A program made the position numbers and the translations under genes. A stretch of DNA of 63,170 nucleotides, counting the filler, from Kipferlia bialata (Eukaryota), in the NCBI GenBank assembly GCA_003568945.1. It is 7 parts of 7 records of this genome, joined end to end, with 100 filler letters (N's around TTAATTAATTAA, not from the genome) between each part and the next. Parts side by side here need not be neighbours in the genome. Positions count along the whole stretch, not along the records: positions 33,409 to 43,273 come from BDIP01001543.1; positions 43,374 to 53,224 come from BDIP01001544.1; 5 more parts are not named here. The stretch is one strand, 5' to 3'. Positions 27,795 to 59,357 of this stretch are shown piece after piece (positions within the stretch are counted from its first letter, which is position 1; the number at the start of each line of letters is the position of its first letter). Under the pieces are notes generated by a model, which saw only the letters and a list, made by a program, of their open reading frames with translations, had not been told where the DNA came from and did not search any database.

Positions 27795-29498
27795 TTCTAT
27801 ATATATCATACCTACTGTAGTGAATATTTGTGTGTGTACTGTCTCACCCACATGTCCTATTCCTCCCCCACCCTGTCCGATGCAACCACTGAGGAAGTGA
27901 CATCAGAGGAGGAGAGGGACTTCTCCTGGAGGGTTACCCCATCAGACACAGAGGTGCTTTGTGTATGAGATATATATATGTATATACGTATTGTAGCTGA
28001 ATAGGTGTCTGTCCAGCAGGTCCTTTCTCCTTATCTTGAGTGTTACTATGTGGCCCTATTGGGATCACTCGCTCACCCTAGTGTACAGAAAGGGTGCGTC
28101 TCTCTCTTCCAGAGAACGCAGAGAGTTGCATTGCTTATTATACAGAGTATCCTCTTCTAACTGGCAGAGTGGCGAGGCACCCTCACTCTCTGCCAGAGAG
28201 CGCAGAGAGAGGCTATTGACCAGACACATCCTGCTGAGTGAGGCCACCTGGAAGGCAACCCACATCCAGTGCGACCCAGGTGGGACAGTGTTGTGTAGAT
28301 GTATATATATTCAAGTACTGACACTATATGTGTATGTATTTATATATATAGTCAAGTACTAGTCCTATATGTACATATGTATATATGTTCATATATACAC
28401 ATGAACATATACATAGACAGCAAGTGTGATACAGTATCTGTAGAGAGCTCTATATGTTCTCACCCTAGGTCTGCAGAGAGACCTAGCAGAGGTGCAGAGT
28501 GGGTATGACTCTGTTGTGTCACGTACACGCCAGCAGGTCAAGAACCAGCCTCAGTTCTCAGAGGTACGTAGTACATACAGTGTACCCTCACGATTCTCTC
28601 AGACAGAAGAGTATATACTGATTGGAAAACAGTCAGAGTCATTTGATAAGAGGTCAGGCTGACCTGTATGTCAGCGCTTGTATATGATATATACTGGTGG
28701 CTCTCTAATCCAGGTTGTATGCCGCACCCCAAGAGATGAGCGCTGTTCAACAGCCAGGGTCAGCAAAGTGCCCCCACTGGTGAGGCCAGTAGGTAGGGCT
28801 TCAAAACTATACTCATACATCTATATCAAAGACATTTGAAACCTCACCCGTAGATGATGACACCATCAGTGATGACGACCTTCGCAAGGAGATCAAGGTC
28901 CGTATACATATGCTTCCTCTTTGAATAATCATACTTGTGACTGACCTATAGAGACACTGTTACTGGTATAGATGGATAGGTGTGTCGTTGTGTCTCTATG
29001 TATACTATACTGTCCAAGTATACCCGTACTATTCCATACACTCACCCTAGAGGCTCGAAGCCCAGAGAGACAGACGCCTGAAGCGTCTCAGGCAAGACAG
29101 GATCTACATGCACATGGTGGGCATTGCCTATGCCAGGGCAGCTGAGAACACCACAGATCCAGGTAATGTATGTCCAGTAACAACTTCACTAATATTCTGT
29201 ATATGAATTCTAGTGTACGGGCACAATACTGTCCTTACCCTTGTATATTGTTGAGTGGGTACTTTCTTACCCCAGAGGCCAAGCAGCTGATGCAGGACAT
29301 GCTGGTCATACTATAGTCAAAGACTATATACTCAATCAGCGTTAATGGTCTATTCAAGTGTGTGTACACTATTAGTTGTATCTGATATACCTCACCCCAG
29401 AGGCCAAGCAGCTGATGCAGGACATGCTGGCCCTCTACGGCAGAAAGGTGGCTGAGATCACCAAGGAGACCCTGGTTAGTGATAGTATCTATGCATGA
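25153..29498 (+). CDS. Multi-exon hypothetical protein with helical C-terminus (boundaries approximate)
   Basis: In-frame splicing gives ...VPGMDGVQWRLA|GEFTLIEPGTIVTMPFKTD|RHTQTVQSLSVAQQEFI|RERLSDPELMGRIYWEELQQLAP... and ...DDDLRKEIK|RLEAQRDRRLKRLRQDRIYMHMVGIAYARAAENTTDP|EAKQLMQDMLALYGRKVAEITKETL. Confidence 0.6.
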
Positions 29499-37170: not shown

Positions 37171-40100
37171 CTATACAGGTACTCTGGTCACTGGGTTTGG
37201 TGTCTTAGACCTGCGACTAGATGCCCTGGGGTCAGTATAGATATATATATACATATATATATATAGTATACACATATGCAGTATTATCATGATCGACTAG
37301 ATGCCCTGGGGTCAGTGTATAGAGTGTGTTCCACACAATACATATACTTAGACTAGTATGAATATGACAGAGAAGCATTGTTATGCAGAAAGTAAGATCA
37401 GACTGGTTACTCAAGGGGAAGCATACATTATATATATCATTCGAAACCTGCATGTAAACACCACCCTCACCCACAGGACCCATATACATACATATATGTA
37501 AACACCATACCTGTATGTGAACATCACTCCCACCCAGAGGATATATACACATGATGAATATATATATACACATATTTACATACACTTATACATGTCATGT
37601 TAGTGAGTGTACCTGCATGTGAACATGACCCCCATCCAGAGTGTCTATATACAAGAGGGATTAGTGTGTATACACTTGATATATGGGTAGTGTATATATA
37701 TATACTGTACCTGCATGTGAACATGACCCCCATCCAGAGTGCCACTGCCCCATACCCACACAGGGCCCATAGGGTGACCTAGGTATTAGGTGCAGATATG
37801 CAGTATGAAAGACTGAATCAGAAAAAGAGAAACAGAAGACTATAGTCATTGAATGATGAATTCCCACAGGGCCACAACAACCTAGTGATAAGGAAATTAG
37901 TGAAATAGTATATATATATGCAGTCATCTGTCTTTGTATACTAAACTGGCAGACATCAGCTTACCTGGTATGACTAGGTACACACAAACCCACATGTATG
38001 TATATATATATATATTACAATTATATTTATAAATATATAGGTATTATACCTGGTATGATATGCCACTGCTGCTGGGTGCAGACTCCATCCAGTAGTCCTC
38101 AAGGTAGGACATCCTGGTGGTTAGTGCATTGAAATATGTGATGATCAAACCTTAAAATTTTTGATATATCAATGTGTATATATATCATCCTCACCTCCCA
38201 TCAGTCATCAAAGTGACTAGTGTATCACTCTCATGTTAGTGAGGGTAGCACATATACATATATATAGAGAGAGAGATACACTATATCAATTGTATATATA
38301 CCATCCTTATTATACCTCCCGTCTGACATCAAAGTGATGCCTCATCAGTACTTCTAATGTTCTCGATACATATATAATTCACTATATTGTATAGTACTCC
38401 CAAGTGAAATACCTCCCATCAGTCATCAAAGTCACCAGTGCCTCATTCATCGAGTCCAATAGGTCAGTCTCATCCCTGGACACCACGCTGTACACCTGCT
38501 GCAGCTCGGCAACCTAGAGGTTACGACATAACTATTGAGTATATATGTATATATATATATGGATCTATCTATACTTGAACACCACGCTGTACACCTGCTG
38601 CAGCTCGGCAACCTGAGGTTAAGAGGCATCCAATACAAATATACAAATACAAGTGCACACACATATGTATGCATAAATGCACTTCCCTGCCTCACTGTGT
38701 ACACACACATCTGCCTGTGTGTATACGTTGATACCTATCGATATAGATATATATACATATACATATATACTATCCCTACCTCGCTGTGTACACACACATC
38801 TGCCTGTGTGTATGCGTTGACACCTATGCATACATATATATACTTGTATACATACATACATATATATATATATACCTATACTATCCTCACCTCGCTGTGT
38901 ACACACACATCTGCCTGTGTGTATGCATTGACACCAATTGAAATGGAGTCAAGGTCACCAGAGCATGCAACGATGGGGGGGTCTGGGATGAGAGTATGTA
39001 CATACTGTTACACTATATAAAGCATACTTCCTTCAATATATATGTCGGTTCATGACACGATTAAGGTTTCTGCGATGAGTGTATAGAACAGGTGTACTGA
39101 ATATGTACACATACACATACATATATAAATACAGCAGAGTAGTATAAGTGTATCCTCACCCGACTCAAACAGAGTACTGAAGCAGTCATTCAAAGATACT
39201 TCTGGTTATGTACGAGTAGTATGGCATGTCACATACACTATGCACATTACCATATGTATATATATATACAGAGTCACCCACCTGACTCAAACAGAGCACT
39301 GAAGCAGTCATCGAAGGACTCCTCAGGATAGTCAACGGGGGCTGCACCCTCATCCAGCAGCCAGTCCCAGAAGGAGTTGCCAGACTCGGCTCCTGAAACA
39401 TTAGACACACACACATATATATAATTTATCATATATAGGAGGGAGAGAGAGAGGATTCAGTACCCAGTCCCAGAAGGATGTTGCCAGACTCGGCGCCTAA
39501 CATATTAGAAGGAGCAAAATATATTCATATAGGGGAGAGAGAGAGAGACGTATCAGTAGCCAGTCCCACAAGGAGTTGACGGATTCAGCTCCTTGTGTTA
39601 CATATTAGAAAGAGAACTCTATAGAAATACAATGTTGGATATTACGATATTACCGCCACTCCCGCACATATATGCAAACACGTACACACACATATATATA
39701 TATATATATGTATGTAGGCCTCTCTCTCTCTCTCTCTATAAATATATATTCATACCTATCGCCACTCCCTCTAAGGAGTCCAGGCTGAATGTCCCCGTGC
39801 CCTGCTCCACACCCTCCAGTGTGACAGCAGACAGATACAGGGCGAGAAGGATAGCGGAGACCTGAATATTAGGGTCTAAATATATACCTAATATGTATAA
39901 TCATAGATGTATAGAGTGACGGCAGACAGGTACAGGGCAAGGAGGATGGCTGAGACCTATCGGTTAGTGTATAGATATATATATAATGTAAAATAAGAAA
40001 TGTATAGGGCAGCAGATAAATAGAGGGCAAGGAAAACGACAGAGATTAAGGGTGTCAGTATACATATGACATATATAATGGGAATCTCTACTCAGTATGC

Positions 40101-43100
40101 ATACCATGTTGTGTATGAGTGCCACCAGTCTTCCTATATATATATATATTTTCCTATATATATATGGACAACTGAATCCATACACACACTATATATATAG
40201 AAAATGGCGCGATTATATATACACTCTCCCTACCATTGTTGTCTATGAATACCACCAGTATGCCGATATTATTTGTAGCCACATATAACCAATCATAGAT
40301 ATATAGTACATGCGCACAAGTAGTATATGTACACATATGCACATATATATGTACCAACAATACCATACTGTCTATGAATACCACCAGTCTGCCATATATA
40401 CTAGTAGACCACTCTATCCATACATAAATGTTTAGTGAATATGCTATAATCATTTCAGTGTCTGTCCATACCACACTGTCTATGAATGCCACCAGTCGAG
40501 ATGTATATACTAATACACTACTTAATCCTGGAATATACCTCATCAATAGATATACCATGGGACACTACATACCATGCTGTCTATGAATGCCACCAGTCTG
40601 CCCCAACATACTTATGGACATATCTACTCACACATACATACTATATATACATATTTCTACATATATCCATACCATGCTGTCTATGAATGCCACCAGTCTG
40701 CCCCCACTGGTCCTGACCTTGTCGGGGCTCCAGCCTAGTATGTAAGGGTATACTATATATATGATATATATATATATATGAGGTATACTGTATATACACA
40801 CTTATATGTATATATATGTATACATTGAATGTATCAGTCCTGACCTTGTCGGGGCTCCAGCCTGGTACATAAGATCTAGGGTACATATAGATATTTACAA
40901 ACGCTTACCCACACACTACTCATTCGCACACTAGAGAGTACACTATCAGTAACACACCTAGCATACTGACCCACAGCATGAGCAGGGCACTGCTACTATA
41001 TGTACATACTATATCACAATATATATATATTAATATCCACATGAAGGTATACATAATTACTTGGAGAGAGGGAGAGAGAGAGAGAGAGGGAGAGAGACAG
41101 TACCTAGCACACTGACCCACAGCATCAGCAGAGCACTGCTACTGTACTCCTCCCTTCTGGCCGCACTGCTGCCATAGTACTCACACAGGTACCTGTTGTG
41201 AGAATGACAGGTTACTATATATGTATACTATATATATGTAGTATGTGGAATATATGTGTGACACTTCGTACTGGCCGCACTGCTGCCATAGTACTCACAC
41301 AGGTACCTGGCATGAGAATAATGTAATAGTAATGTACATACAGACACTGTAACAATAGAATACTCTCATCTGGGTACTAGTCATATAGTACTAATAAAGT
41401 TACCTGTTGTATGTCTATCATGCAAACATATGAGAATGTATTTTGTATGTACGTTACAAACTGTTATCGTTATAATGATGTGTATATCCGTAATGATCTT
41501 TCACTCACTTGACATTGGTCAGTATCAGGTGGGTATGTATTAATATGAATACTGTATGAATAAATACATATATACACTAATCATAGTAGTCACACTCACA
41601 TGATATTGGCCAGTATCAGGGTATTATACACTCACATACTGCATATACATCGACAGGAAGAATCTACGGCTAAAGAAAATAGTATATATATATATATATA
41701 TATCTATATCCTACACTCACATGACGTTGGCCAGCACCAGGTGGGACAGCAGGATCATACACATTCATGAGTATATATAGTATGAGTATATTTATATATA
41801 TACAATATAAGTACACTATAACCATATACTCACATGACATTGGCCAGCACCAGGTGGGACAGCAGGATCATACACATTCATGAGTATACATGTATAGTAT
41901 ATATAGTATGAGTATATATATACTACATTAATATACACTATATATATATACACATACTCACATGACATTGGCCAGCACCAGGTGGGACAGCAGAATCAGG
42001 GCAAAGATGTTGACGGCTGGGGATCAGTGCATCACAATTAAGGTATAGTACATGTATGAACATATATACATTGATAAACACATCTCCAGTGGGCTCCAAG
42101 AGAGGAAATAGAATATAGAAAAAGCAAAGATGTTGACGGCTGGGGATCAGTGTCAGTGAGGGTGTTGTGAATACATAAAACGATATATATATATATATAC
42201 ACCATCACATATGTACCATACTATGCATACGTACACACATGAATATACATTGTATTATACGTACCTAGAGCACTTGTGATGGGTGCAAAGATGTCCCAGT
42301 CACTGGCAAGGCCTGGGGTGGGGGGGATACCCTTTAAAGTCACACATATATAGATAGCCATATTAATAGATGGAGAACATAGATGCATGACGGATAACTG
42401 ATACGACAACCACTCACTCTCGCATGGGACTGCAAATGCAATGCCTGTCTCGTGGAATGGCACAGTGTATCTGGGGTCAGAGAGGTAGAGAACGGTATGA
42501 TACTATGTAAAACTATTATATAATATGAATATATATAAATTATTATATTATATATATAATTATATATTAGTATATATAAAAAGAACGAGAGTGTCGGATG
42601 TTGGACAGTAAATCTGGCAAGAGACATTTAGGTATATGGATCATTGAACATTGAATTAGTGCGTACACACATATACATACACATATATGTACATATGCAC
42701 CTATATATATATATATCATATTGACTACGCATTGGGAATCAATGTATGTATGTATACCTGACATATACTATATACACAATAATAATGAAGAAATAATAAT
42801 ATACTATTGAAAGTGTCAATAGCTTTATAGCATACTACTGATGTATACCTCACGTTCTTATACACCCTGTCCTCATAGAGTGACACACTGCTGAGGAAGG
42901 CAGGGTTAATATATATACACACACACACCCATATATATATATACATATATATAGACTATATATTACTATACCTCACGTTCTTGTACACCCTGTCCTCATA
43001 GAGTGACACACTGCTGAGGAAGGCAGGGTACTGGTTGGCAGCAACGGCGTCAACGGCCTAGTATAAGGGTGATATACTAATATGTAAATATATAGGTAGT

Positions 43101-43167
43101 GTCTAGTAGAGACATATAACATGCCCTACCTCATCGAACGACAGATCGGCACAGGTCAGCTCGTAGT
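37171..43167 (-). CDS. Ionotropic glutamate receptor-like ligand-gated ion channel (S1-M1-M2-M3-S2-M4), 5' truncated, 14 exons seen
   Basis: Spliced translation: YELTCADLSFDE|AVDAVAANQYPAFLSSVSLYEDRVYKNV|RYTVPFHETGIAFAVPCE|SLASDWDIFAPITSAL|AVNIFALILLSHLVLANV|MYLCEYYGSSAARREEYSSSALLMLWVSVL|GWSPDKVRTSGGRLVAFIDSM|VSAILLALYLSAVTLEGVEQGTGTFSLDSLEGVAI|GAESGNSFWDWLLDEGAAPVDYPEESFDDCFSALFES|DPPIVACSGDLDSISIGVNAYTQADVCVHSE|VAELQQVYSVVSRDETDLLDSMNEALVTLMTDG|RMSYLEDYWMESAPSSSGISYQ|VTLWALCGYGAVALWMGVMFTC|RASSRRSKTPNPVTRVPV*. All junctions are GT-AG and in phase. The domain order matches iGluR/GLR channels. Confidence 0.85.
37290..42910 (-). repeat. About 30 intronic partial copies of flanking exon ends ('exon echoes') in TA-rich filler
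   Basis: Examples: 42849-42907 copies the end of exon 42972-43057. Four copies of the M1 exon end lie at ~41834, 41719, 41600 and 41510. Five copies of the RLVAFIDSM end lie at ~40572, 40469, 40363, 40233 and 40103. 39912-39956 copies the start of the M3 exon. Confidence 0.9.
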
Positions 43168-43273
43168 CTGGGGGGTGAGTATATAGTGATCATTACTGTA
43201 CACCACACATATACAGATATAGGGTAAGAGAGAGATGGGGGGGGGGGGGCATGTCGTATAATAGTCTCGGGAG

Positions 43274-43373
43274 NNNNNNNNNNNNNNNNNNNNNNNNNNN
43301 NNNNNNNNNNNNNNNNNTTAATTAATTAANNNNNNNNNNNNNNNNNNNNNNNNNNNNNNNNNNNNNNNNNNNN
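43274..43373. other. Artificial contig linker
   Basis: N44-TTAATTAATTAA-N44. Confidence 0.99.
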
Positions 43374-43561
43374 TAAAAGGGGTGTTTTTTCCCCCCCCCC
43401 CCCCCCCCCCCTCCGTCTCGCCCTCTTTCCATTCTCTCTCTCTCAGATCATACTCTCTCATGATGGTATAGTGTCTCCCTATCCCTCTCCCTCTTCCTCC
43501 AATTCCACGATGAGTCCAACATAGAGACTCCGTGTCTCTCTTTTTTTCTCCCCCCCCTCAG

Positions 43562-44548
43562 GTCAACGATGACCTGGACACAGACTCTCTCTCTCTCTCT
43601 CTCTATCTGCATATAGATATTTGCTTGTATATCTTGTCTCACCTCAGGTCAATGATGATCTGGGCACATACTTTGATGTGTACTGCTCGCTGGACGGGTG
43701 AGTATGCATAGTAACAGCACTTACATCCCACACCTCTCTCTCTCTGAGAGAGTCTCTCTCTTTGCTTTCTCATACTCTTCTTTCTCTCCCAATCTTTCTC
43801 TGTACGGGGTGATTGTCTCTCATCCAATCGCTCTCTCAACCCAGTTTTCGACATCTTGTTCTTCGCTCTCTCTCTCCCACCCACCCCAGCTCCTTCATCT
43901 CTCTGTTCGAGGCTGTCAACCAGGACGAGTGGCCATTCCTCATAGGTATATATATACTATATATATATATATATACATATACTTGGTATAGAGTATGTGT
44001 GTGTATCTATATCTATGTCTGTTCGAGGCTGTCAACCAGGACGAGTGGCCGTTCCTGATAGGTATTTATAGGATGTATATATATTGAGTGTGTATATGTT
44101 AATCATCAGGCAATATCGTTAATCTGAGAGGGCGTTGTACATTTCATCACAAGCAGAGTAGCTGATCCGAGCTGACATTCCACCAAGCACATATTTCCTT
44201 CTCCCCCCGCCTCTTTCTCTATCTCATGTCTATTAGGCATACTATAACTATATATACACTTATATAGAACTATATATATAATTATATATAATAGTATTAA
44301 TAATTATACTACAACACCAGGAGCCCAGTTGTCTCTCTCCTCATCTGTCTCTCTCTATTAGCTAATATCTGTTAAAGCTCCAGGCGCCTTTGCCACCAAG
44401 CCCAGCAGTCCCTCCACCTCCCTCTCTCCCCCAATATGAATACATATATATATACCTTATCCCTAGGCGCCTTTGCCACCAAGCCCAGCAGAGTATCTCT
44501 CTCTCTCTCTCTCTCTCTCTCTCNNNNNTGCCACCAAGCCCAGCAGAG

Positions 44549-44598
<50 letters not shown>

Positions 44599-47500
44599 CT
44601 TCTAACATCTAGGTGCCTTTGCCACCAAGCCCAGCCGAGTGGCCCTGGCAGACTACATGCTCAACATCAACCTCAGCAGCAAGAGTACGTAATTACCATG
44701 AATGTTTGTTGACTCTTCAAGATATATATATGAGCTTTTGTCCCCATCTAACCCATGCCTGATTTCCCCCTGTTCCCTCTCTCTCTCTCTCTCCCCCTAT
44801 TACTCTATCTAACCCATGCCTTATTGTACCCTGTTCCACATCGGTGTCAGGCTTTGCAATGTTCGCACCAATGTAAGTGACATCCCTGTATATGGTGCAT
44901 ACGTCTATACTACCCTTTCTCCCGCTCTGACAGATCTATGTTTGTATCAACCACCTTGTCCACGCCACTCTTTTCCCGCTCTAATGTCCCAGGTTCGAGC
45001 CCCTCTCTGTCAATATCTTTGCCATGATGATACTGGTGCATCTGGTATCAGCCAATCTGGTGTTCCTCACAGGTACTCTTCACCCGCCCTTTCTCATTAT
45101 GTAAATATTACTTTCACATTGAGTTTCTGCACGTAAAGTCTTCCCTGAGTTCTTGAACTCCACTCTTATATATATAGATCTATATACATAATACATATAC
45201 CCTTTTGGCAGAGCAGTGTGGCTCGTCCCTGAGGAACACATGACCCGTTGCATGCTTCCATGAACGATATACATATATCAAGTGTGTGTACATGTATACT
45301 AACAATACCAGAGTACTTTGGGTCCACATCGCTGAGGAAGACCATGCAATACTCCAAGAATGGACCCATCATGTTCTACATGGCATTCATAGGGTATGTG
45401 ATACATGTATATACATTATATATATCTAATAGGTATATATACTATATATAGATAATACATATATATACCATATATACACACTACATCTGCAGGAGTGGAC
45501 CCATCATGTTCTAGATGGCATTCATAGGGTGAGTTTGTATATGTATTTATACATATATATTAGTATCGTAACTATACTGTAATATATACTGTATATGTAC
45601 CAATGAATTGATATATGCATAGTACTCCAAGTATGGACCCGTCATGTTCTACATGGCATTCATAGGGTATGGACATGTATATATATATACATATTCTATA
45701 TATATACTATATCTCTAGTATGTATATATGTGCTATATATACGATATATACATACTACATATGCAGGATTGGACCCATCAAGTTCTACATGGCATTCATA
45801 GGGTATGTGATATGTGTGTATATATATGCTGTATATAAACTATATATCTTGTATGTGTATATACCATATATACATACTACACTAGCAGGAATGGACCCAT
45901 CATGTATACATGGCATTCATAGGGTATGTGATACATGTGTATATATTCTATATATCAAATATATATATATATATATATATACTATATATAGGTACTGCTA
46001 TACTGCACGAATGGACGGACCCGTCATGTATACCTCCTCCCCCCAGGTGGGACCTCAACAAGATCAACACTAGTCTGGGACGGTTCATCATGTTCATAGG
46101 TGGGGTATACATACATGTGTGTATATATTTACATATATTTATATATATAATGTTCATAGGTAGGGTATATATATATATATATATATACATACTTAATGCT
46201 TCGAATTGGATAGAACATGATGTGTCCACCTTTACCAGTCTGAGACGGTTCATGTACAGTAGAGTATAAATTCAAACGTAGATATACATATATGCATGTA
46301 TGATGCTCATAGGATATGTGTACCAAGAATTCCACTATATAGTATAGACACAGACTCTTCGTTCTCTCTTCTCTATACTATAATATATAGCTGTCTCACC
46401 CTTAGATGTCATGCTGGAGACTGTCCTCGCGGCATATTCATGTATAGTACCATAATAGTACGCTGCTCTACATATTTGTTTCTCTCTCCATATATATGTT
46501 TCTCTCTCCATATATGTGTTTGATTCACATATACTTACAGTAGATGTGATGCTGGAGACTGTCCTGGCTGCATACTTCATAGGGTCAGTCACGGCATCCA
46601 CAGAGGTGGGTATATCAAATAGACTAGTATATATAGTAGGGTATATATACCTATGCACTATTAGCTTCACACTTCATAGGGTCAGTCACGGCATCCACTG
46701 TGGTATATAAACACCTGATATATTGAGATATATATGTATCTCTTCACATGTCTCACCCCAGCTTGGCATCAATGTCAGCTTCAGTTGCATTATACATACC
46801 TCTCTCACCTTCTGTATCGATATGGATGTGAATATCCTCAATTGTATACTAGTAAACCTCTCACCCTCAGCTGGGCATCAATGTCAGCTTTAGTGTGGAC
46901 ACGGCCAGTGACTTCACAATAGGGTGCAGGTACACATCCATGATATATAGTAGTATATATATATGTAGTATATATATATATATATATGTATACATAGGTG
47001 TGTGACACCGCCAGTGACTTCACAATAGGGTGCAGGTACATGGTGGTATAAGTAGAGTGTTAGTATCGTGCAACATATAGTGTATAATTATTATAATTAT
47101 TCTCGTGTAATTGTCTTATTCTCAGAGCCTCCTCGTCTGTGGACCAGGTGGAGGAGTGTACTCTATCTCTCTTTCTCTCTCTCTCTTACCCTATACGTAC
47201 CTATATACTTACTACCAGACCCTCCTCGTCTGTGGATCAGGTGGAGGAGTGGGGGGCAGACTTAGTCTTGGTGGACAGTACAGGTGGGTGTATTTATAGT
47301 ATATTGGAATACGAGACTTACACTTTGTTCTCACCCCTAGAGGAGTGTGCTGCCCTTATCAATGTGCCTATTGCAGATGGTGGGGTGGATGCGTGTCTAG
47401 GGTATGGATATGGATATGCAATTGTACTATGTATATATGTATATACCTATGAGACTATATTGAGAGATATAGTATATATACATGTCCGTAGCAGATGGTG

Positions 47501-48077
47501 GGGTGTATACTTGTCTGGGGTATGAACTTACCCAATACGTATTCGTGTATGAGTGTGGTGCCTCTCTGTGTTTCGGTCCCTATTCTTCGTCTCTCCCTCA
47601 GACTCACTCTAGATCCTATGAGCCCCTTGCCTACCTCCAGAACCACGTATTATCTCTCTCTCTCTCTCTATCACTTACACTTAGTTCCTATGAACCCTTG
47701 GCCTACTACCTGCAGAACCATGCTGGGGATGGACTGTGCATATACGATGAGACACTCGTACCAGGTGTGTATACATATATATGTATACCTATATATATAT
47801 ATACATGTATATAGTGGTGTACTATACTTTTGGAAGGACTGTGCATATACGATGAGACACTGGTGCCAGGTAGAGATGAAACTATATGTTATTTCTCTAT
47901 AGCACCTCTCCTACTCTCTTTAACCCTTCAGGCACCCGCACCGGTGCTGTGAACTTTGCATACCCAGACCTAAGGAGGGATATAGATGGTAGGGATGAGT
48001 ATATACAAATCAAATTTTTTTTTCACATATAGAGTTGTTTGAATTGATATACATACAGGTATACCGAAGGACACGTT

Positions 48078-48108
<31 letters not shown>

Positions 48109-48640
48109 ATGTATAGGTATAAATATGCACCCTCCCCCCAGGTGTCATTGTGTGTAGAATGATGGCAGGATGTACGTATCTCTCTCTCTCTACTTATCAA
48201 TACAATTCTTTTCTTTGTTTCTCTCTCTATATATACACCCTCACCCCAGGTGTCATTGCGGCCATGCAGGATGACGGCAGGATGGATGCACTCGAGGAGA
48301 AGTGGTTCGGAGGTATGTAAACATATATACCAACTGGCAATGTGTATATATGTTGAGATAACTAACCCCCAGGCCTTGATGCTTATATGCTCCTGGGCAG
48401 CGTCTCTTTCTCTCACTCGCTCTCACTCCCCCGTTTGTCTTTACTCTATCATTGTGTGTATACTAACCCCCAGGCCTTGATGCCGATATGCTCCTGGGCA
48501 ATGACACAGCCAGTGTCTCCATGGAGGTATGTACTATGCACAGGCATTATATATATAGTGGATTATACATTTCCTTAGGTATGCGGGTATGTGTGGTGTA
48601 TATGTATTAATGGCACAGCCAGTGTGTCCATGGATTTATG
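43562..48640 (+). repeat. Intronic partial copies of flanking exon ends ('exon echoes')
   Basis: Examples: 43562 (VNDDL), 44022-44061 (FEAVNQDEWPFLI|gt), 44383 and 44467 (ag|GAFATKPS), four to five GPIMFYMAFIG|gt copies at 45495-46030, 46406 (ag|DVMLETVLAAY), 46762, 47010, 47126, 47490, 47612, 47836, 48142, 48373 and 48613. Confidence 0.9.
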
Positions 48641-48977
48641 CAGTGAAAACACACACACACTATCTCTATCTCTCTCTGTCCACGCGCAATCTCTCTCTCT
48701 CTCCCCCTCTACACCCTTATTGTCAGTGGTGGACCTTCCTGGCCATTGGCCTCCTGGTCTTCTTCCTGTTCTCCACGATGCTCCACAGGTACACAGTAAA
48801 TATATATATGACATCACCTTCGTGAGTGCAAATGTAGGTAGATGTGTTATATGTGTACATATACCTCACCGTAGACTCTGCACCAGGAGTGCCAACAGGG
48901 AGGAGAAGAGAGAGAGACAGAGGGACAGAGAGACAGAGGTCCTGAGGACAGTCCCAGTGGGAAGACTCCACATGTGA
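43648..48977 (+). CDS. Second ionotropic glutamate receptor-like channel, paralog of 37171-43167, 5' truncated, 17 exons seen
   Basis: Spliced: VNDDLGTYFDVYCSLD|GSFISLFEAVNQDEWPFLI|GAFATKPSRVALADYMLNINLSSK|SFAMFAP|MFEPLSVNIFAMMILVHLVSANLVFLT|EYFGSTSLRKTMQYSKNGPIMFYMAFI|GWDLNKINTSLGRFIMFI|DVMLETVLAAYFIGSVTASTE|LGINVSFSVDTASDFTIGC|RPSSSVDQVEEWGADLVLVDST|EECAALINVPIADGGVDACL|GSYEPLAYYLQNHAGDGLCIYDETLVP|GTRTGAVNFAYPDLRRDID|GVIAAMQDDGRMDALEEKWFG|GLDADMLLGNDTASVSME|WWTFLAIGLLVFFLFSTMLH|RLCTRSANREEK...LHM*. The segment DG.M..L..KWFG is typical of the PBP2/S2 end. A short exon may be missing between S1 and M1. Confidence 0.85.
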
Positions 48978-50359: not shown

Positions 50360-50834
50360 CCTAGGTTTGAACCGGCATTCCGTGACAGAAGATGCCACAT
50401 GTTGACTTTGACCTCATGCGACCATTACTCCTTACTGTAATTTGTCGGATCTCTGATTCAGCAATTCTCTGAGTTCCTTGAATAGACATTTGACACATAC
50501 ACCGCAGCCTGCAATTTGCAGGAGAGACAATGATGAATATAGGAGACTGAACAGGATCCTATTGATAAATATCATATGTACCACACAGAACTGTGGGGAC
50601 ACACTCCTAGATTCATACTATATCATATATAGTATATGAACTATTTTACATCGACGCCACCCAAACATCTAGTGGCAGGGGCACTGTAGTCTATTGTTGC
50701 GCAAGCAGAATGATTATGACCCAGATTCACACATAGTGTGGCAGGTTAGTAGATACTACATTGTAGTAACTACAGCCTTGTCACATACACTCACACATTA
50801 CCAAGCAATGAAGTATAGATGTATATATCTCTAC

Positions 50835-52445
50835 TCACACATTACCCAGCAGAGGCTGTGTCTCGTACTGCACGGCATCTAGCTTAGGGTTGTACACTGG
50901 GGGTGCTGAGCCACCATTGCCCGACCCCTTGCCCTGTCTGGAGTAGCACACGCACAGGCACAGGGAGACTATAGTGCCCAGGGATACTATACCAACCATA
51001 CCAACCAGGGCATACTGCCACCAGGGGGTGCCTGGAGTATCAATGTGCCTAACTGCATATACAGTATATAGTAAGTACATACATAGTGTACACGTGTATA
51101 ATGGTGTGGTAACCATACATATATATATGCGTGTATCTGGGGGGGTACCTGTTGTGTCACTGCCGTCTGACACGTTGGAGGTGTAGCTGCAGGACATGCT
51201 GACCTAAGAGTGAGTGACATGCTACTCTCTCTATATTCTGTGACATGTCACACTCACCAGCACATCGTAGTCATCCGAGTAGTCCTGCTCCGTCTCAATT
51301 GTCACAGCCACACAGTTCTGGTCAGTGCCAGGCTCCGTGTTGAGGGAGAAAGACTCGCGAAGATGGGCAACGCCATACCTGGGATGAGTGCACAAATACA
51401 GATATATATACATATACATAAACAACAATGTACTTCCATATCTAAATGTACATATTTACATGTAGAGACTACTTCTACCTAGCATCCTTGAGCTCCATCT
51501 GGGTCACCTCGACGATGTATAGTATGTATCAGTATACAACTACTAACGTTAATAGTAGTATATACATATATACATAAGCATTGTATACCTAGCATCCTTG
51601 AGTTCCATTTCAGTCACCTCGACATCCTCCCCCTGTCCCTCACAGTGTGCGGCATACACACCCACATAGCCGGAGAAGCCACTCACACCCTTACACCTGA
51701 GGTCGGTATTATGAATATTGAAGTAACACAATCTCAATACTCGGTACTACAGTAATAGTATACCTAATGTCAATGCTCTCCAGACCCTCGGGATGGATGG
51801 CCCAGGTGTCATACTGGAAGGGTACATAGCGAGAGGTGGCGAAGGTATCAGCGCCGGCAGTGAGGGAGACTGTCTGGGTGTCATAGACTCCTGTCTCGTA
51901 GGTCAGGGTGAAGCCGTAACTATCAGAGCCGTAACAAGTATCCGTAGCGTCTGTGTCGTACTGCACCACCCAGCAGTTGGTGGAGTCATGGGTGTAGATG
52001 GGGGTGACCACTGACACGTGCTCGTGGTAGTTGCTGTCGTCGTAGTGTATCTCTGCAATGGTATCCTCAATCGTCACCACACCACCGTTGCACATACCGT
52101 GGGAGACAGTGATCTTGTCGCCGGAGATACAGTACTCTATGGTCATCTCCGTGTGCTCCTTGCCGCTGTATGCATACACATACCGAGCGTGTATGTCGAC
52201 CCCTGTTGACTTGTCAGCAGGGACATAGAAGGAGTCACTGGGGGAGGTCAGGTAGGTCACGTCAAACGCAACATCAGCGGAAGCAATACATATGGCGAAG
52301 AGCAAGATCAGCAACGCAGCTGGGGTGAGGAGGTAAAGAGAAGAAAGAGAATCCCAAAACTCAGTATTCTCGTCAATAACGTTCTTAAATAGGCACCAAA
52401 CGACCTTGGACGGACATATTGAACAAAATGTTACTTACCTATCAT
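50835..52445 (-). CDS. Type I membrane/surface protein, 6 exons, apparently complete
   Basis: ATG-ATA-G|gtaagt at 52445. Signal peptide MIAALLILLFAICIASA. Beta-rich Thr/Asp/Tyr/Cys ectodomain (ORF 51709-52314 plus three exons). TM segment WWQYALVGMVGIVSLGTIVSLCLCVCY. Tail SRQGKGSGNGGSAPPVYNPKLDAVQYETQPLLGNV*. Confidence 0.8.
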
Positions 52446-52742
52446 TCGGAGTCCTCCGGGAGCCGGAATAGCATGAAAGAAGCATAGTTGTCACCAACTC
52501 CTATCAACTGTGACCAACGGTAAAGGGTGCAGGATCAATTAGAAACTTAATAATGGAATTTAAGGACAATAGTTTAGAATTTAGCTGAAATCATTTGGAA
52601 TTTGCCCTTCCGTCTACTCATAGAAGCAGTGCACACCCACCCAGCCTGTAGTGCGTCACGAGCACTCCTAACACTCCGCATACATCCAGAGGGAGGGAAG
52701 AAGAGGAAGAGAGAGTCCCTGAGTCCCTAGAGTCCCTAGAGT

Positions 52743-53069
52743 ATGGCAGGGAACAGACGTCCCTCCATCGCCCACACCCCCCACCCCAACCACCCGTCTG
52801 ACACACCGTCTGATGGGGTGAGGGTGTATGTGCGTGTGCGGCCTGGCCTCAACGGGGAGGTGACGTGTGTGGAGGGGCACGAGGACATGGAGTCGGTGGT
52901 GGTGACCAATATCGAGAAGGGGGAGGGGGAGAGTGAGGGTACGAAGAAGAAGGGGAAGAGAGGGAAGAAAGGGAAGAACATCCACGCCATCACCTGCAAC
53001 GTGGGTGTGTATGACCCCAGACAGTTCCAGTTCGATGATGTGTTTGGACCCACAGCTACGCAGAAGCAG
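52743..53069 (+). CDS. Kinesin motor domain, first exon (rest beyond contig end)
   Basis: GVRVYVRVRP and RQFQFDDVFGPTATQKQ are canonical N-terminal kinesin motor motifs. Donor GT at 53070. Confidence 0.9.
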
Positions 53070-53170
53070 GTGTATTCTATATATACTATAGTCCATGCAT
53101 CCTGCCCAGTTTTGATATATGACACAGCCAAGGCCATGTGTTTACATGTGTGCTCTACCCCTTCTGTATC

Positions 53171-53324: not shown

Positions 53325-53325
53325 T

Positions 53326-53550
53326 ATGGCCCCTGTCAACCAGGGACCCATAGCACCTGCAGTGTATGCACAGGTATATATAGATATGTATATATATATG
53401 TGTATATGTATATGTATATGGTATCTATATATGTATGGCCCCAGTCAACCAGGGACCCATAGCACCTGCAGTGTATGCACAGGTATGGGTATATGTGTGC
53501 TACAAGTCTACTGATACACGTTGATGCCACTGCAGTGTCTCACCCCCCCC

Positions 53551-54076: not shown

Positions 54077-57000
54077 CTAATAGTACCCGCGTCTCCTGTC
54101 TCTTTCTCTTCTCTCTTCCCTCCGTCTCTCAACCTCAGTGGCTCGTGCGTGTCCCTCAAGGTATCTGGTATCCGCTAGTAGTAAGTATAGGGGGGTTAAT
54201 TCGCAGTGAGACAGGCAGGCTGTCCCTATATACTCCCCAAAGCGGAAGTGTTAAGAGACCCAACAACATATATATACAATGGCTTGTATGTGGTAACGGA
54301 TATAGACAAGGGCACCAGCACCCACTCACCCCTAGCCAATGCCTCGTCTGCGTCCCATAATAATAATAATAATAATACAATAATATAATAATAATATAAT
54401 AATAAGCATCACCTCTACCCCTTGCCTCGTCTGCATCCCACCTAGGCAGGGTGAGGGAGGTGTCTCCAAAGAGCAGCTGGGTGTGAGACGATACAGACAC
54501 ATAGTCTACATACACTGTATGTCATAGAGACACTTCTATGTTGAGTGGGCAGGATGAGGGAGGTATCCCCAAACAAGAGCTGAGTGTACACATAGCCAGA
54601 TCAGTATACATAGTTTGTTGTTCACTTAGCAACACTGTACCTCACTGTTCAGGGTCACTATCCCATAGGTGGGGGATTCAGCATGATAATCGTCGTTCTC
54701 TGGAGTTATACTTATCGCAAAGAACATGACAACAACGAGCGAATACATATACATATTCGGGATGTATCTGCTAATTGCCACGGTGTTTCGAATAGCGTGT
54801 AACGACGTACTGTGGGGAGTGAATGCGACTAGTACGGACACCGAGTCGTCAGAGACGGAGTAGAGAGTGACATGGGGTTCTCTGAACATGTGATCAGAGA
54901 GAATCATAGCGATAGGTATACATATATAGTATAGATGTAAACGCAATGAGTAAAAGACGGAATACTAGAGTGCATCCCATCACCTTTCCTCCATGTCCAC
55001 AAACTCTCTCTCACTTCTCAACCACGACCGGCGCTCCTCTCTCTCTCTCTTGCTGCGCTTCGGGAAGAGATGCCCTATCCTGTACCACTCACCAGACGCA
55101 CAGTCATACAGACAGGCCTGGGTTAATACACGCAGAGAGAAGACATTGACGAGTGTAAAATGCAAAGATACACTCTCATACTCCCTGACACATAGTCAAG
55201 CAGGCTACAGGTCCAGAATACAATATGAGTAATATGATATATACATGTCTATACACCACACCTCTTTGGGCACACTTCCAAGGGCCAAGATCTTCTGCCC
55301 TGGTAGCTGGAAGTCAGTGGGTGGGGTATGAAGTATGTCTATACTATCAATGCAACTCGTCCCGTACCCCCACCAAGTCTCCCTCAGGTCTCAGCATCGA
55401 CCCATGGACCACTTCATCAGTCCACTTGCACCCTGTCTCACCCCCATTACCATAGATGAGGGCCATGGTGATGTGGTGATGCTCCGCCCTGAGATGAGTG
55501 ACTCTTGATAACTAGTATATCAATACGAAGGGGTTGACATTCAATAATGCAGTCACCTCGCAGTCCTGGGTTGGTACCCGTATCTTCTGTTCTCCCCAGT
55601 GACCCTGGCTCTCTCGGCCTCTCTCTCTCTCTCCTCAGGAGTCAAGGGGATCTGGTAGGTGTGGAATATGTGCAAGGTATCGTCTACCACAGCATGGCTG
55701 ACGGTGAGATCATGGTAAACAGAACTATTACATATAAACAATACTACTGATGTAGTAGTAGTTATGGACAGAGAGCGTGGCTGGCAGTGATTAGACATTC
55801 ACTATACAACAAAAGATTCTCTCCCACTAGCATCATTACTCAGATAAGTATCAAACCAATACCACACCTGTTGCAGCCTGTTCCCACTTGGATGTGTGCT
55901 GGAGTGTCAGGGAGGGGGGTCCACATGCTGTGGTGAGGATGATTTAGAGAATGATGATCCGACATCATAAGATTGCTCTTTTGCTGATAGGGAGGTGGTC
56001 TGTATCCCAAGTACCTAGTCTCTGGATCGTAGAGTGACACCGCAGAGGAAGGTGTGTCCTCAGGTGGCAGAGGGGGAGCATTATCCCTGAGTGAAAGATG
56101 AACAGGAACATACACCAACTGCTACCCCAACACACATTATCGAGAGACATACTCAATATGTAGGATTACTAGTACAACTACTCATACCTAGTTGTGTCAT
56201 TCACCTTGGGCTTGGTATAGCCGCCTAGCAACACAAGCTGAGAGTCAGAGAGCAAACTCTTGCTAGATACTATCACACACCCTATTAAACCGTGGACACG
56301 TACCTTCCCCTCCAGACAGCATGTGATGGGGGCATGAGCGGGAGGCGGCCAGAAGGACTGGTACTGAGGATGTACATCACACACCCTCAACCACTCCCTT
56401 CTCCTCTGGGCAATCTCTCTCTCCCTCTCGAAAACACCAGGGGCCAAACGCGCATATCCGTCCACACCTTTATCATCCCTAAGTAACATGTCAAGGAAGA
56501 TACTCAACTTGGCACGGACGCACGCTATTCTGGCCGATGTAGCTAATGCCTCGTCCTTGTGACACTCGCAGTCAAAGTGACTCATATCATCGGGCACTGG
56601 GTCCTCTGTCCCACCCTCCTCTTCCAGCCTCTTGACCAAGGTCTCAAGGCAGGAGAGAAGCGGCACAACACGGTCTCGATTCTGAATCTGGGGTCATATA
56701 CGGTGACTTCACTCAGGAATGACACTAACCAGTGACAATGGGATAGACCATATATAATGAGTTGCTGTTAGTCATAGTGAGCACATGGGAGAGTACCATC
56801 AAAATAGAAGTCTCTATACAAGTATACTAATCATGCTAACCATAAAGGAGTATTCCTTTACGTGACGGTTCCTGTCTCCCTCTCTGGATCTCAACTCATC
56901 AGGGGTTGGAAGGTCGATCTCTCCCTCACTGCGTCGCCTCTCAACCTCAGCCAGCAGTGTTGTCCTCTGCATGTCAGGCAGAGTGTATACAGACAAGTAA

Positions 57001-58530
57001 TTAGGGATACTAGGAAGTAGTATGTAATTCACGCTCAAATATACCTTGTTCCTGATGGTCCAGTCTTCAGTTGGTATGTCGTACTCAAACAGATAACTCT
57101 GCTCCCTGGAGATGCCTACATAGAGGACCTTGTCCAGCACTCGGCACACACAGAGATTGCCTGGACATGAGAGAGTTACTACATATATACTATTAGAGGG
57201 CCACACATCGGTTGTAAGGGGACATATCTATTACTATCTCGACAAAATCCACACAAATACCTATATTCATACTTGAGCTTCTATGACGCCATACCATCTG
57301 AGCCTAGCCTGAATGGGAATTGGTGAAGCACGCGTCCTCCCATACGCCTAGTATGTCTAGTATGGCGGTATGGGAGGTGTGGCCTCTCTGTGTCTGGGTC
57401 ATCTGTCTCTGGGTCCGTGTCCCTCTTGACAATGCGTCTATACCATGCCTGAGGGGTGAGCACTGGCAATCAATTATCTATTCTGAGAATATATACAGTA
57501 AAGGGCGCAGCCTATCACATAATCTGGTACCCTGTGGTCCCAATTGTACTCCAACGTCTCGTGCAGCGTGTACTTCTCCTGAGAGGTCAGTAGCAGATGT
57601 AGTATCACTAATTGTATCTTCAAATATATGAGAGAGAGCGTGTGTGTACAGAATACTCAGTATGACAATTTTCACCATCATACCTCACCATAGCCTCAGG
57701 CGACAAATGTGGATGTCTGTGGATGAACAGAGATATATGTGTGTGGAGGTGTAGTTACCTGGGATCTCTGACCACGGCCTACCCGAACACCGGTGTCACC
57801 TGTGTCCATCTGGAGTCAGAGATAGGTACATTCATATGATTATGTACTGATTAGATACATGATCTTACCAGCATATACAACATACTGCAGAGGGGGGACA
57901 TATCCATCAGGACTAGGGGGGAGGGGGGGAGGCACCAACCTGACACACCATGACACCCTTGTGACCTATGTTAGTCACTGCCATGGGCTTGGGATCGTTC
58001 CGTTCACTGATGTTAGAATGCAATGGAATACAATGAATACCAACCGTAATCATACCAGTCATAGACCGAGGTAAAGAGAATACAAAGCATATATGCTTGT
58101 GCATAGTGTATACTTGGCCACATACTATCGGAGCCAACTATCGGTTGAGTGAACGCCTTTCAACTCTCTGTAACCAATGAGGGGTGGGATACTGCGTCTC
58201 GGGAGAGGAGGTCGACGTGTTGCCTATTGGCATTAGGATGAAGTGGTTCAAGACAGGTGAAGCAGAGACAGAAAGATACATGATGGGGGGGGGTAGAGTC
58301 CGAGAGAAGAGGTATATCAAGATTCACACATACATATATATGTGAATATATATAGAGATACACCTGCATACACAAATGCATATATCAAGCCACAACATCG
58401 TACCACCCGGTGGCGCCGAACAAAGAACCAGGAGCATAGAGCGAGCAGCTTCAACCTCCTCTCTATCCTGTGCTGGAGGGAGAGGGCCCGTCTGCCTGCC
58501 TTCAAGGCATCAAAGGCACTGAGATGAGCT
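54077..58530 (-). CDS. Kelch-like repeat protein, paralog A of a tandem pair (start probably upstream, near 59100)
   Basis: Exons include AHLSAFDALKAG...VRRHRV|ATRRPPLPRRSIPPLIGYREL, EKYTLHETLEYNWDHR, NLCVCRVLDKVLYVGISREQSYLFEYDIPTEDW, FWPPPAHAPITCCLEGK|LVLLGGY, SLYDPETR, HAVVDDTLHIF, LYDCASGEWY and LLFGDTSLTLPRWDADEARGR|ADTRYLE...RRRGYY*. Confidence 0.7.
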
Positions 58531-59357
58531 ATGTACCAATATACATGCATATATATATGAGGGGGAGAGAGATAGTGCAAGAGAGAGAGACTGCCCTGGG
58601 CATCGAAGGCACTGAGATGATTTTGTACCACAAGTGGTATCAGCATTAGGGAGGGGGGGGGGGTGCAAGATGGAGCCATGTTGAAATCAGAGTATAGCAA
58701 CACTTGACCTGAGGGCATCAAAGGCACGGAGGTGTGCTGAATATCTGCTATATACATATAGTATACCACTATCCATCACTATGGATGTCAAGTATACAAG
58801 AGGTGAGAGAAAGACCACATATATGCATTGTGAAAGTGTCCTGAGTCCATAAACATAGAAGATTCCACTCAGACACTGGCGAGCGAGGACACCTCGCCGA
58901 GGGGTGGAGAAAGGTATGGGTAGAGTGATGACAGATAGTGTATGTATACGTGTGTGTGTAGGGAGGTTGGGGTGGGGGAAGGGGGGCACTCCTCGAACAC
59001 ATTGCACTATATACATATATATATACATTGTGTGTACAACATGCACCATTAGTGTGCACTGACTGCATCATATCATATCATACCAGACCCACCTGCTCAT
59101 TGCCACCAGAGGCAGTTAATAGGTGCTCTGGATTCTAACTGGCAGTGAATAGGTGCATCTGTCTTTTTGGTTTCGTACGTCAACCCTTTCTCTTTACCAA
59201 AAACACTTTCGCAAGCCTGGTCTATTTGTCATCATAATAGACGAAAATCATCGTCTATTTCTATGGGCACGACTACATCCAAACACTCTGGGACACAGTC
59301 TGGCACAATTATTATCAATGACCGTAAGTGATGTGTGTAGACTTTCTAGCGGAATAG

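What the first reader, a model, noticed from the sequence alone, without database searches (positions are those of the whole stretch)
37290..48640. 'Exon echoes': introns stacked with splice-site-bearing partial copies of the adjacent exon ends, in strict polarity
Seen: in both iGluR-like genes, which lie on independent contigs, most exons are flanked by about 15-60 nt copies of their own ends. Copies of acceptor plus exon start lie upstream of the intact exon. Copies of exon end plus GT donor lie downstream. There are up to 4-5 per junction, separated by TA-rich filler that mostly differs between copies. I found no complete duplicated exon, so this is not ordinary mutually exclusive exon duplication. 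Inference: a recurrent, junction-focused process lengthens introns and leaves many decoy splice sites that the spliceosome must skip or use (recursive or alternative splicing). I do not know of a description of this architecture, but I cannot search the literature.
Basis: partly seen in the sequence, partly recalled or inferred. Interest (0 to 1): 0.92.

Follow-up and report, generated by a model that had tools for sequence, protein, structure and literature searches.

The report
Exon-end echoes in Kipferlia introns
In two receptor-like genes of the free-living protist Kipferlia, half of all exon ends are repeated with their splice signal about 110 bases into the neighbouring intron and the transcript contigs seen skip these copies; they resemble lancelet 'mirage' repeats, but their unrelated intron flanks and excess of silent differences suggest they are likely scars of DNA repair from a non-identical gene copy.

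Summary
Both genes rebuild to intact iGluR-like frames; gene B is an annotated Kipferlia bialata gene. A scan gave 47 partial exon copies at 30 of 60 exon ends, none on the wrong side, spaced 63-165 bases (median 109). On the 2 kb where contigs were laid, DNA contigs bridge four echo sites and RNA-like contigs join only intact exons, skipping 10 of 10 echo sites. The architecture is known: lancelet 'mirages' and the human F7 minisatellite; this scan met it before in animal genomes. Polarity is simple geometry. What differs here: intron flanks of exon and nearest echo are mostly unrelated (3 of 30 alignable), and nearest echoes differ mostly at silent sites (38 synonymous, 22 replacement; pN/pS 0.21 against 0.5 expected). 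So most are not plain tandem copies. Best reading (0.5): one-sided recombination repair pastes an exon half, splice signal and about 70 intron-like bases from a diverged copy without removing the old half. No such donor was found. Decoys score as well as real sites yet are skipped, which points to exon definition. No support for recursive splicing. New variant of a known kind.

The parts
37172..43167 (-). Gene A, iGluR-like, 14 exons, 5' end cut by the contig end; 26 echoes at 14 exon ends
   Evidence: one open frame of 341 aa, 28% to gene B, 51% to K. bialata paralog P0006; no RNA laid
43648..48977 (+). Gene B, iGluR-like, 17 exons, 5' end cut; annotated as KIPB_006144 (partial); 21 echoes at 16 exon ends
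   Evidence: 370 aa frame; P0001 matches except 11 aa; exons 1-7 joined in RNA-like contigs
42849..42906 (-). Echo of A exon 2 end, 57 of 58 identical, GT kept, intron flank unrelated to the working one
41510..41870 (-). Four echoes of A exon 5 end; first two fillers related (secondary in-place expansion)
42124..42139 (-). Echo of A exon 5 start with a 13-nt identical acceptor
41264..41306 (-). Echo of A exon 6 start
40958..41000 (-). Echo of A exon 6 end
40837..40861 (-). Echo of A exon 7 start, 25 of 25 identical, different acceptor and flank
40105..40607 (-). Five echoes of A exon 7 end, more decayed with distance; the six intron heads are mutually unalignable
39913..39956 (-). Echo of A exon 8 start, 7 of 7 differences synonymous
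39455..39591 (-). Two echoes of A exon 9 start
39162..39208 (-). Echo of A exon 9 end
38691..38827 (-). Two echoes of A exon 10 end
38571..38612 (-). Echo of A exon 11 start
38195..38345 (-). Two echoes of A exon 11 end
37448..37643 (-). Three echoes of A exon 13 end
37294..37319 (-). Short echo of A exon 14 start (below scan threshold)
43562..43586 (+). Echo of B exon 1 start; not used in the RNA-like contig
44018..44061 (+). Echo of B exon 2 end with GT; skipped in the RNA-like contig
44384..44494 (+). Two echoes of B exon 3 start; skipped in the RNA-like contig
44529..44549 (+). Third B exon 3 copy beside a 5-N gap; probably an assembly overlap, left out of counts
   Evidence: exact repeat of the stretch before the gap
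44685..44817 (+). GT..AT intron; holds an echo (44746-44776) of its own AT acceptor
   Evidence: RNA-like joint; the 11 aa it keeps align with paralog P0002
45212..45250 (+). Decayed echo of B exon 6 start (by eye); skipped
45487..46029 (+). Four clear and one doubtful echo of B exon 6 end; fillers partly related; exon 6 joins exon 7 directly in the RNA-like contig
   Evidence: (loose end equals exon 7)
46234..48634 (+). Single echoes at exon ends of B exons 7-15 (46234, 46406, 46664, 46762, 46998, 47128, 47477, 47614, 47832, 48142, 48373, 48609)
   Evidence: no reads laid here
54326..54587 (-). Two echoes in one of a pair of tandem paralogs on contig 7, used to tell old from new copy

Best explanation
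The echoes are real partial exon copies with intact splice signals that the observed transcript contigs skip, and they are likely scars of repeated one-sided recombination repair that used a non-identical copy of the gene (probably a diverged allele, possibly a paralog) as template. Inferred steps: a broken end pairs where the two copies match, which is in the exon; synthesis runs across the splice site and about 70 bases on into intron-like DNA; the end then rejoins by microhomology without trimming the resident exon half, so one half-exon, either the old one or the incoming one, is left in the intron about 110 bases away. Events that copy a whole exon or lose a splice site would be purged, which leaves the two polar classes. 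Some units were later expanded in place like minisatellites. A half-exon has only one splice site, so it would be invisible if sites are paired across exons (exon definition, inferred). The source of the filler is unresolved.
For: Shown: polarity and density; unit median 109, SD 20, n=47; RNA-like contigs join intact exons across 10 of 10 echo sites, and DNA contigs bridge 4 echo sites at depth 390-480. Not plain copies: flank beside working site versus nearest echo aligns at z>=3 in 3 of 30 and z>=2 in 5 of 30, while simulated in-place copies with 5-20% substitutions plus 5-20% dinucleotide indels reach z>=3 in 87-100%; exact identity runs only 0-6 nt into the intron in 27 of 30; 5 of 7 near-identical echoes have unrelated flanks. 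Coding-type divergence: nearest echoes 38 synonymous and 22 replacement, pN/pS 0.21 (junction bootstrap 0.11-0.35) against 0.5 for in-place copy plus neutral decay; with a direction-aware mutation model P=0.004-0.02; third and later copies decay neutrally (ratio 1.05). Outgroup: in a tandem paralog pair on contig 7 one echo with its flank is the old exon end (28/30 and 44/60 to the paralog; the working end's flank does not align), and at the other end of the same exon the echo has the foreign flank and differs from the working exon mostly silently. Family members P0003 and P0005 share 63 identical residues at 59% overall identity, a hint of exchange between paralogs. Metamonads lack Ku/NHEJ and are thought to rely on HR and alternative end joining (PMC8516963, passages). 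Decoy strength: echo acceptors score at least as high as the real one in 10 of 16, donors in 13 of 31; 9 introns hold an inner donor-acceptor pair 59-322 nt apart, most with GT and AG intact.
Against: No donor was found: the nearest known paralogs are 63% (B) and 51% (A) identical, and the DNA contigs showed no second allele at 95% or more over 43374-45400 (which does not prove absence). An allele at the observed silent divergence (about 0.16) should keep an alignable intron, as the contig 7 pair does, yet most fillers do not align, and donor-side fillers are TA-richer (0.47) than ordinary intron heads (0.30-0.31), which hints at newly made DNA. The synonymous excess weakens when all 47 copies are pooled (P=0.19 or 0.04 by trimming). 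Old-versus-new was polarised in only 2 cases, in another gene whose exon was called by eye, and the two cases differ in which copy is the echo. Arrays at A exon 5 and B exon 6 do behave like ordinary tandem repeats.
Confidence: 0.5

Rival explanations
1. Plain mirages: in-place tandem duplications across a splice site. The intron part then scrambles fast by microsatellite slippage, and the silent excess comes from later allelic conversion of the working exon, or from selection on the nearest echo because it converts the exon in cis.
For: Same layout, unit size and harmlessness as lancelet mirages (PMC3087553, PMC3902484); related fillers in the A exon 5 and B exon 6 arrays; pN/pS rises with distance (0.21, 0.28, 1.05); needs no unseen donor.
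Against: Echoes with 0-1 differences over 25-58 nt have unrelated flanks in 5 of 7 cases, and heavy simulated slippage stays detectable; an older intron head on contig 7 still aligns at 44/60; six mutually unrelated intron heads at A exon 7.
Confidence: 0.22
2. Break repair copies the gene's own exon end and splice signal, then inserts foreign or newly made AT-rich DNA (template switch to another intron through the shared splice consensus, slippage synthesis, or an RNA-derived intron), like Daphnia neo-introns but with much longer direct repeats.
For: Identity stops at the splice consensus; donor-side fillers are TA-richer than ordinary intron heads (P=5e-5 and 8e-4); no close paralog known; Daphnia intron gains show AT-rich inserts with 4-12 bp repeats (PMC4202315, passages).
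Against: Does not by itself give a synonymous excess; working and echo acceptors often differ yet both fit the branch-point consensus, unlikely for random DNA; no filler source in the window (which sees about 0.1% of the genome).
Confidence: 0.17
3. The echoes are functional: used in recursive, nested or alternative splicing, and kept under coding constraint for that reason.
For: Splice motifs are intact and strong; silent excess; a naive gene finder echoes as small exons, some in frame such as 46406-46441.
Against: 10 of 10 tested sites are skipped in RNA-like contigs; 16 of 47 have AG|GT and the B exon 6 array has none; unequal numbers of donors and acceptors rule out inside-out splicing there; several echoes carry stops or frameshifts. 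Contigs drop rare forms, so low-level use is open.
Confidence: 0.07
4. Assembly artefact: alleles or paralogs stitched in tandem.
For: Short-read contigs; silent differences and unrelated introns are what alleles or paralogs look like; one copy beside an N gap is probably artefactual; the DNA run laid may be the window's own source.
Against: Single DNA contigs of 382-462 bases run through filler, echo and filler at four sites with depth like their neighbours; in a real allele an exon end is preceded by the rest of its exon, not by filler; copies decay with distance and carry stops.
Confidence: 0.04

Closest known systems
Lancelet 'mirages' (globin BflGb6 and BflGb9, Adh3, PGBD5; PMC3087553 passages, PMC3902484 passages and section 16; the Adh3 paper was not held)
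   Same: Partial exon plus splice signal repeated into the intron at both 5' and 3' boundaries; units of 60-160 bp; many copies keep AG/GT; normal mRNA.
   Different: Mirage units are head-to-tail copies that include the intron part (81-100% identical in BflGb6) at one or two junctions per gene. Here half of all exon ends are hit, the intron part is mostly unrelated, differences are mostly silent, and the host is a fornicate protist.
Human F7 intron 7 37-bp minisatellite (PMC1557585, abstract)
   Same: Functional downstream pseudo-donors stay silent; the most upstream donor is used.
   Different: One simple VNTR at one donor; does not explain skipped acceptors or foreign fillers.
Internal gene duplication and intron gain by tandem duplication (Gao and Lynch 2009 as cited in PMC3087553; PMC3265369, search listing only)
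   Same: Short intragenic duplications that carry splice signals.
   Different: No new intron arises here; existing introns grow and the protein stays collinear with its paralog.
Daphnia neo-introns from double-strand-break repair (PMC4202315, passages)
   Same: AT-rich inserted DNA bounded by direct repeats of exon sequence.
   Different: Repeats there are 4-12 bp and new introns form; here repeats are 16-58 bp at existing junctions, in a group reported to lack NHEJ.
iGluR-like channels without the N-terminal domain (AvGluR1, bacterial GluR0 homologue)
   Same: Family profile hits GluN2B in two stretches (E 6e-13), AvGluR1 and the bacterial homologue.
   Different: K. bialata-specific family of at least 8 members; ligand and channel activity untested.

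Membership tests
Mirage (junction-spanning minisatellite) | Repeat holds part of an exon and its splice signal and lies in the adjacent intron | tested here: met
   43 of 50 hits reach the exon boundary on the expected side
Mirage (junction-spanning minisatellite) | Units are tandem copies that include the intron part | tested here: not met
   3 of 30 nearest echoes have an alignable flank; met only in part in the A exon 5 and B exon 6 arrays
Mirage (junction-spanning minisatellite) | Normal mRNA is made from the outermost sites | tested here: met
   10 of 10 echo sites skipped in two RNA-like contigs over B exons 1-7; 37 or more other sites untested
Mirage (junction-spanning minisatellite) | Copy number varies between haplotypes or cells | not testable with these tools
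   one sample only; no match in metagenome contigs
Mutually exclusive exon duplication | Whole exon copied with both splice sites | tested here: not met
   0 of 50 hits cover both ends
Recursive splicing | AG|GT ratchet sites used stepwise | tested here: inconclusive
   16 of 47 echoes have AG|GT (by eye); intermediates cannot be seen in contigs
Intron gain by tandem duplication | A new intron splits the exon between the copies | tested here: not met
   intact exons in RNA-like contigs; protein collinear with P0002
Exon-definition splicing | Sites are chosen across short exons; closer intronic pairs are ignored | tested here: inconclusive
   consistent: exons 38-111 nt, introns 57-811 nt; four nearer donors skipped at B exon 6 and an inner 322-nt GT-AG pair skipped in B intron 2; no direct test; cassette-exon rate not measured
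iGluR-like receptor | Split ligand-binding domain around membrane helices | tested here: met
   profile hits to NMDA subunits in two stretches; Pfam SBP_bac_3 in 5 of 7 members, just under the cut-off for P0001; helix order fits but model confidence is low, pLDDT 47
iGluR-like receptor | Ligand-gated ion channel activity | not testable with these tools
   needs expression and recording

The most novel reading that the evidence does not exclude
Kipferlia runs a genome-wide exon-end replacement process: break repair, precise to the splice junction, swaps half-exons between diverged gene copies and brings in fresh intron DNA each time, leaving a dated stack of earlier exon ends and, in some introns, the whole former intron nested inside the new one. 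A protist with a reduced spliceosome tolerates this only because it defines exons, not introns.
Probability: 0.35. Interest if true: 0.8.

Novelty: new variant of a known kind. Interest (0 to 1): 0.58.

Why it matters
If right, it is a route of intron growth and turnover that acts at existing junctions and records its own history, in a lineage reported to lack NHEJ; over half of the intron bases in these two genes come from it. It also gives a large natural test of splice-site choice: decoys as strong as the real sites, at fixed spacing, in an organism with about 87 of 174 surveyed spliceosomal proteins and no snRNA candidates found (PMC6679479), where protists are expected to use intron definition (PMC2397502). 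In practice the echoes mislead gene finders. If the plain-mirage rival holds, it is a known oddity at unusually high density in a new lineage.

Tried and rejected
No whole genome is held, so no genome-wide count and no search for filler donors. No run on record as RNA was listed; run X2 is a guessed RNA run, judged by its intron-skipping joints. The bin 44530-44597 had no DNA contig cover, but it lies at skipped repeats and proves nothing. A protein search with gene A exon 9 found nothing (weak evidence). A degenerate pattern for the family found 0 matches in metagenome contigs. Single-exon Pfam scans gave 1 weak hit in 12. The structure model was too poor for a fold search. Fillers have no source in the window beyond sibling fillers in two arrays. 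Replacement differences in echoes do not follow paralog P0002 (read by eye), so it is not the donor. The first filler-composition test was not position-matched and was redone: the TA excess holds for donor-side fillers, weakly for acceptor-side ones. One search had two donor positions off and was redone. A hard exon-size cap was rejected because other genes here have exons over 300 nt. Searches of earlier scan notes for this genome and protein were empty.
Full report
Setting. The window is seven short contigs joined by N spacers; no whole genome is held. The finding spans two contigs. I rebuilt gene A (minus strand, 14 exons, 341 aa) and gene B (plus strand, 17 exons, 370 aa) as single open frames, 28% identical, both cut at the 5' end. 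A search with B exon 6 returned a Kipferlia bialata protein from a contig of the same length as this one; it equals my model except for 11 residues. Six further K. bialata paralogs were found, the nearest 63% to B and 51% to A. A profile of seven members hits NMDA subunits in two stretches, AvGluR1 and a bacterial iGluR homologue, so 'iGluR-like' is fair; function is untested.

The observation. Aligning each exon with each intron of its gene gave 50 hits: 27 exon ends downstream, 16 exon starts upstream, 6 trimmed copies on the expected side, 1 distant, none on the wrong side and no whole exon. Cross-gene pairs gave 1 hit in 445, reverse-complement pairs 11 in 454. I dropped 3 of 50 (distant, weak, and the copy beside the N gap) and kept 47 copies at 30 of 60 exon ends; one of them, the fifth at B exon 6, is doubtful. 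They account for 57% and 55% of intron bases. Site-to-site spacing is 63-165 nt, median 109. Elsewhere in the window echoes are sparse: about 13, among them 1 in a leucine-rich-repeat gene with at least 26 predicted introns; by eye they show the same polarity. So the process is probably general but much denser in these two genes.

Are they real, and are they used? Contigs of two public runs from one sample were laid on 43374-45400. In X1 (DNA, possibly the window's own source) single contigs bridge the echo sites at 44062, 44384, 44757 and 45212 with depth 390-480. In X2 (RNA by guess; its joints skip GT-AG introns) two contigs run through exons 1 to 6, and the loose end after exon 6 equals exon 7. 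The exon 2-3 joint is read from contig continuity, since its joint row was dropped as lying at repeats. All 5 echo acceptors and 5 echo donors crossed are skipped. Contigs drop rare forms, so low-level use is open, and gene A and B exons 8-17 have no read evidence.

Polarity. A direct duplication across one splice site must leave the intact exon first at a donor and last at an acceptor; copies of a whole exon or losses of a site would damage the protein. Polarity is therefore geometry plus selection (reasoning).

Why these are not plain tandem copies. First, flanks. The 55 bases beside the working site and beside the nearest echo align at z>=3 in 3 of 30 cases, whereas simulated in-place copies with up to 20% substitutions and 20% dinucleotide indels do so in 87-100%. 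Exact identity runs 0-6 nt into the intron in 27 of 30. Of 7 nearest echoes with at most one difference, 5 have unrelated flanks. At A exon 7 six intron heads are mutually unalignable. Against this, fillers in the A exon 5 and B exon 6 arrays are related, so in-place expansion also occurs. Second, codon pattern. An in-place copy that decays neutrally while the exon changes only silently should give pN/pS near 0.5. Nearest echoes give 38 synonymous and 22 replacement differences, ratio 0.21 (bootstrap over junctions 0.11-0.35); second copies 0.28; third and later 1.05. With mutation rates taken from the replacement changes, P is 0.004-0.02 for nearest echoes, but 0.19 or 0.04 for all 47 pooled, depending on trimming. 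Third, an outgroup. On contig 7 two tandem paralogs share an exon. In one copy the downstream echo and its flank match the paralog's working end (28/30; flank 44/60, z 9.0) while the working end's flank, a TTA run, does not (z -0.7): the echo is the old end. At the start of the same exon the working acceptor's flank matches the paralog (z 5.8) and the echo's does not (z 0.5), and echo and exon differ mostly silently: the echo is the newcomer. In both the upstream copy is new, but two cases in a gene called by eye are thin.

Mechanism. Shown: the anatomy, the skipping, the unrelated flanks and the silent excess. Inferred: a broken end invades a non-identical copy where exons match, copies across the splice site and about 70 bases on, and rejoins by microhomology with the resident half still in place. 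Metamonads are reported to lack Ku and DNA-PKcs and to depend on HR, with alternative end joining present in some (PMC8516963, passages). Two family members share 63 identical residues at 59% identity overall, a hint of exchange, though a chimeric gene model could give the same. The weak point is the donor: no close paralog is known, no second allele showed at 95%, an allele at 0.16 silent divergence should keep an alignable intron, and donor-side fillers are TA-richer than ordinary intron heads (0.47 against 0.30-0.31). I give this reading 0.5, plain mirages with fast scrambling 0.22, own exon end plus foreign or newly made filler 0.17, functional use 0.07, artefact 0.04.

Splice-site choice. 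With leave-one-out models from these genes, echo acceptors score at least as high as the working one in 10 of 16 and echo donors in 13 of 31; nearest echoes do not differ significantly from working sites (P 0.39 and 0.13). Nine introns hold an inner echo-donor to echo-acceptor stretch of 59-322 nt, most with GT and AG intact, like a former intron. Pure intron definition would use these nearer pairs; where tested it does not. First-come choice explains donors (as in F7, PMC1557585, abstract) but not last-acceptor choice. Exons are 38-111 nt while introns span 57-811 nt. Exon definition fits best; this is inference. A survey predicts intron definition for protists while noting both modes in nearly all species (PMC2397502, section 12).

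What is known. Earlier notes of this scan pointed to lancelet mirages, which I checked: tandem duplications of 5' and 3' exon-intron boundaries, units 10-160 bp, normal mRNA, mechanism unclear (PMC3087553, passages; PMC3902484, passages and section 16). The original Adh3 paper was not held. This finding works like a mirage but fails one defining feature, tandem identity of the intron part, at most junctions. The K. bialata genome paper reports 124,912 introns and has no word beginning 'duplicat' in its main text (passages and section 12). Ten library searches listed no description of such copies in a protist or of mirages with foreign flanks and silent divergence; the library lacks most subscription papers and I opened no supplements, which may bear on this.

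Verdict. Real, apparently tolerated, a new variant of a known kind. Interest 0.58; 0.8 if the replacement process and exon definition hold genome-wide (probability 0.35).

Noticed in passing
window 44685-44817: Intron with GT..AT ends in an RNA-like contig; the public annotation uses a later AG and lacks 11 residues that paralog P0002 keeps. Its echo also ends in AT.
   Followed up: partly
window 37172-43167: Gene A has an intact frame but no matching annotated protein was found (nearest 51%).
   Followed up: partly
window 45017-45044: DNA and RNA-like contigs both break and overlap here inside B exon 5, which suggests a word shared with another locus; P0002 has 16 identical residues across this region.
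   Followed up: no
proteins P0003 and P0005: 63 identical residues in the membrane region at 59% overall identity: recent conversion between paralogs or a chimeric model.
   Followed up: partly
window 54268-62340: Tandem paralog pair with a period of about 5 kb, exons 72-85% identical; both copies carry echoes at the same exon end.
   Followed up: partly
genes A and B, acceptors: Branch point fused to the acceptor: 6-8 nt from the intron end in 27 of 31 acceptors, as recalled for Giardia and Trichomonas.
   Followed up: no
window 88-9877: Long leucine-rich-repeat gene with many 84-nt exons and only one echo (1385-1409); a natural low-density control.
   Followed up: partly
window 16974-17566, 29266-29430, 50789-50851, 51476-51623, 53325-53486, 58506-58738, 62826-62948: Scattered echoes in unrelated genes with the same polarity by eye and spacing 44-125 nt.
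   Followed up: partly
window 46406-46441, 45767-45802, 42849-42890: Echoes that have both a candidate acceptor and a donor and a length divisible by three: possible cassette mini-exons.
   Followed up: no
window 52740-53070: Start of a gene that looks like a kinesin motor domain (recalled motif, not searched), cut by the contig end.
   Followed up: no
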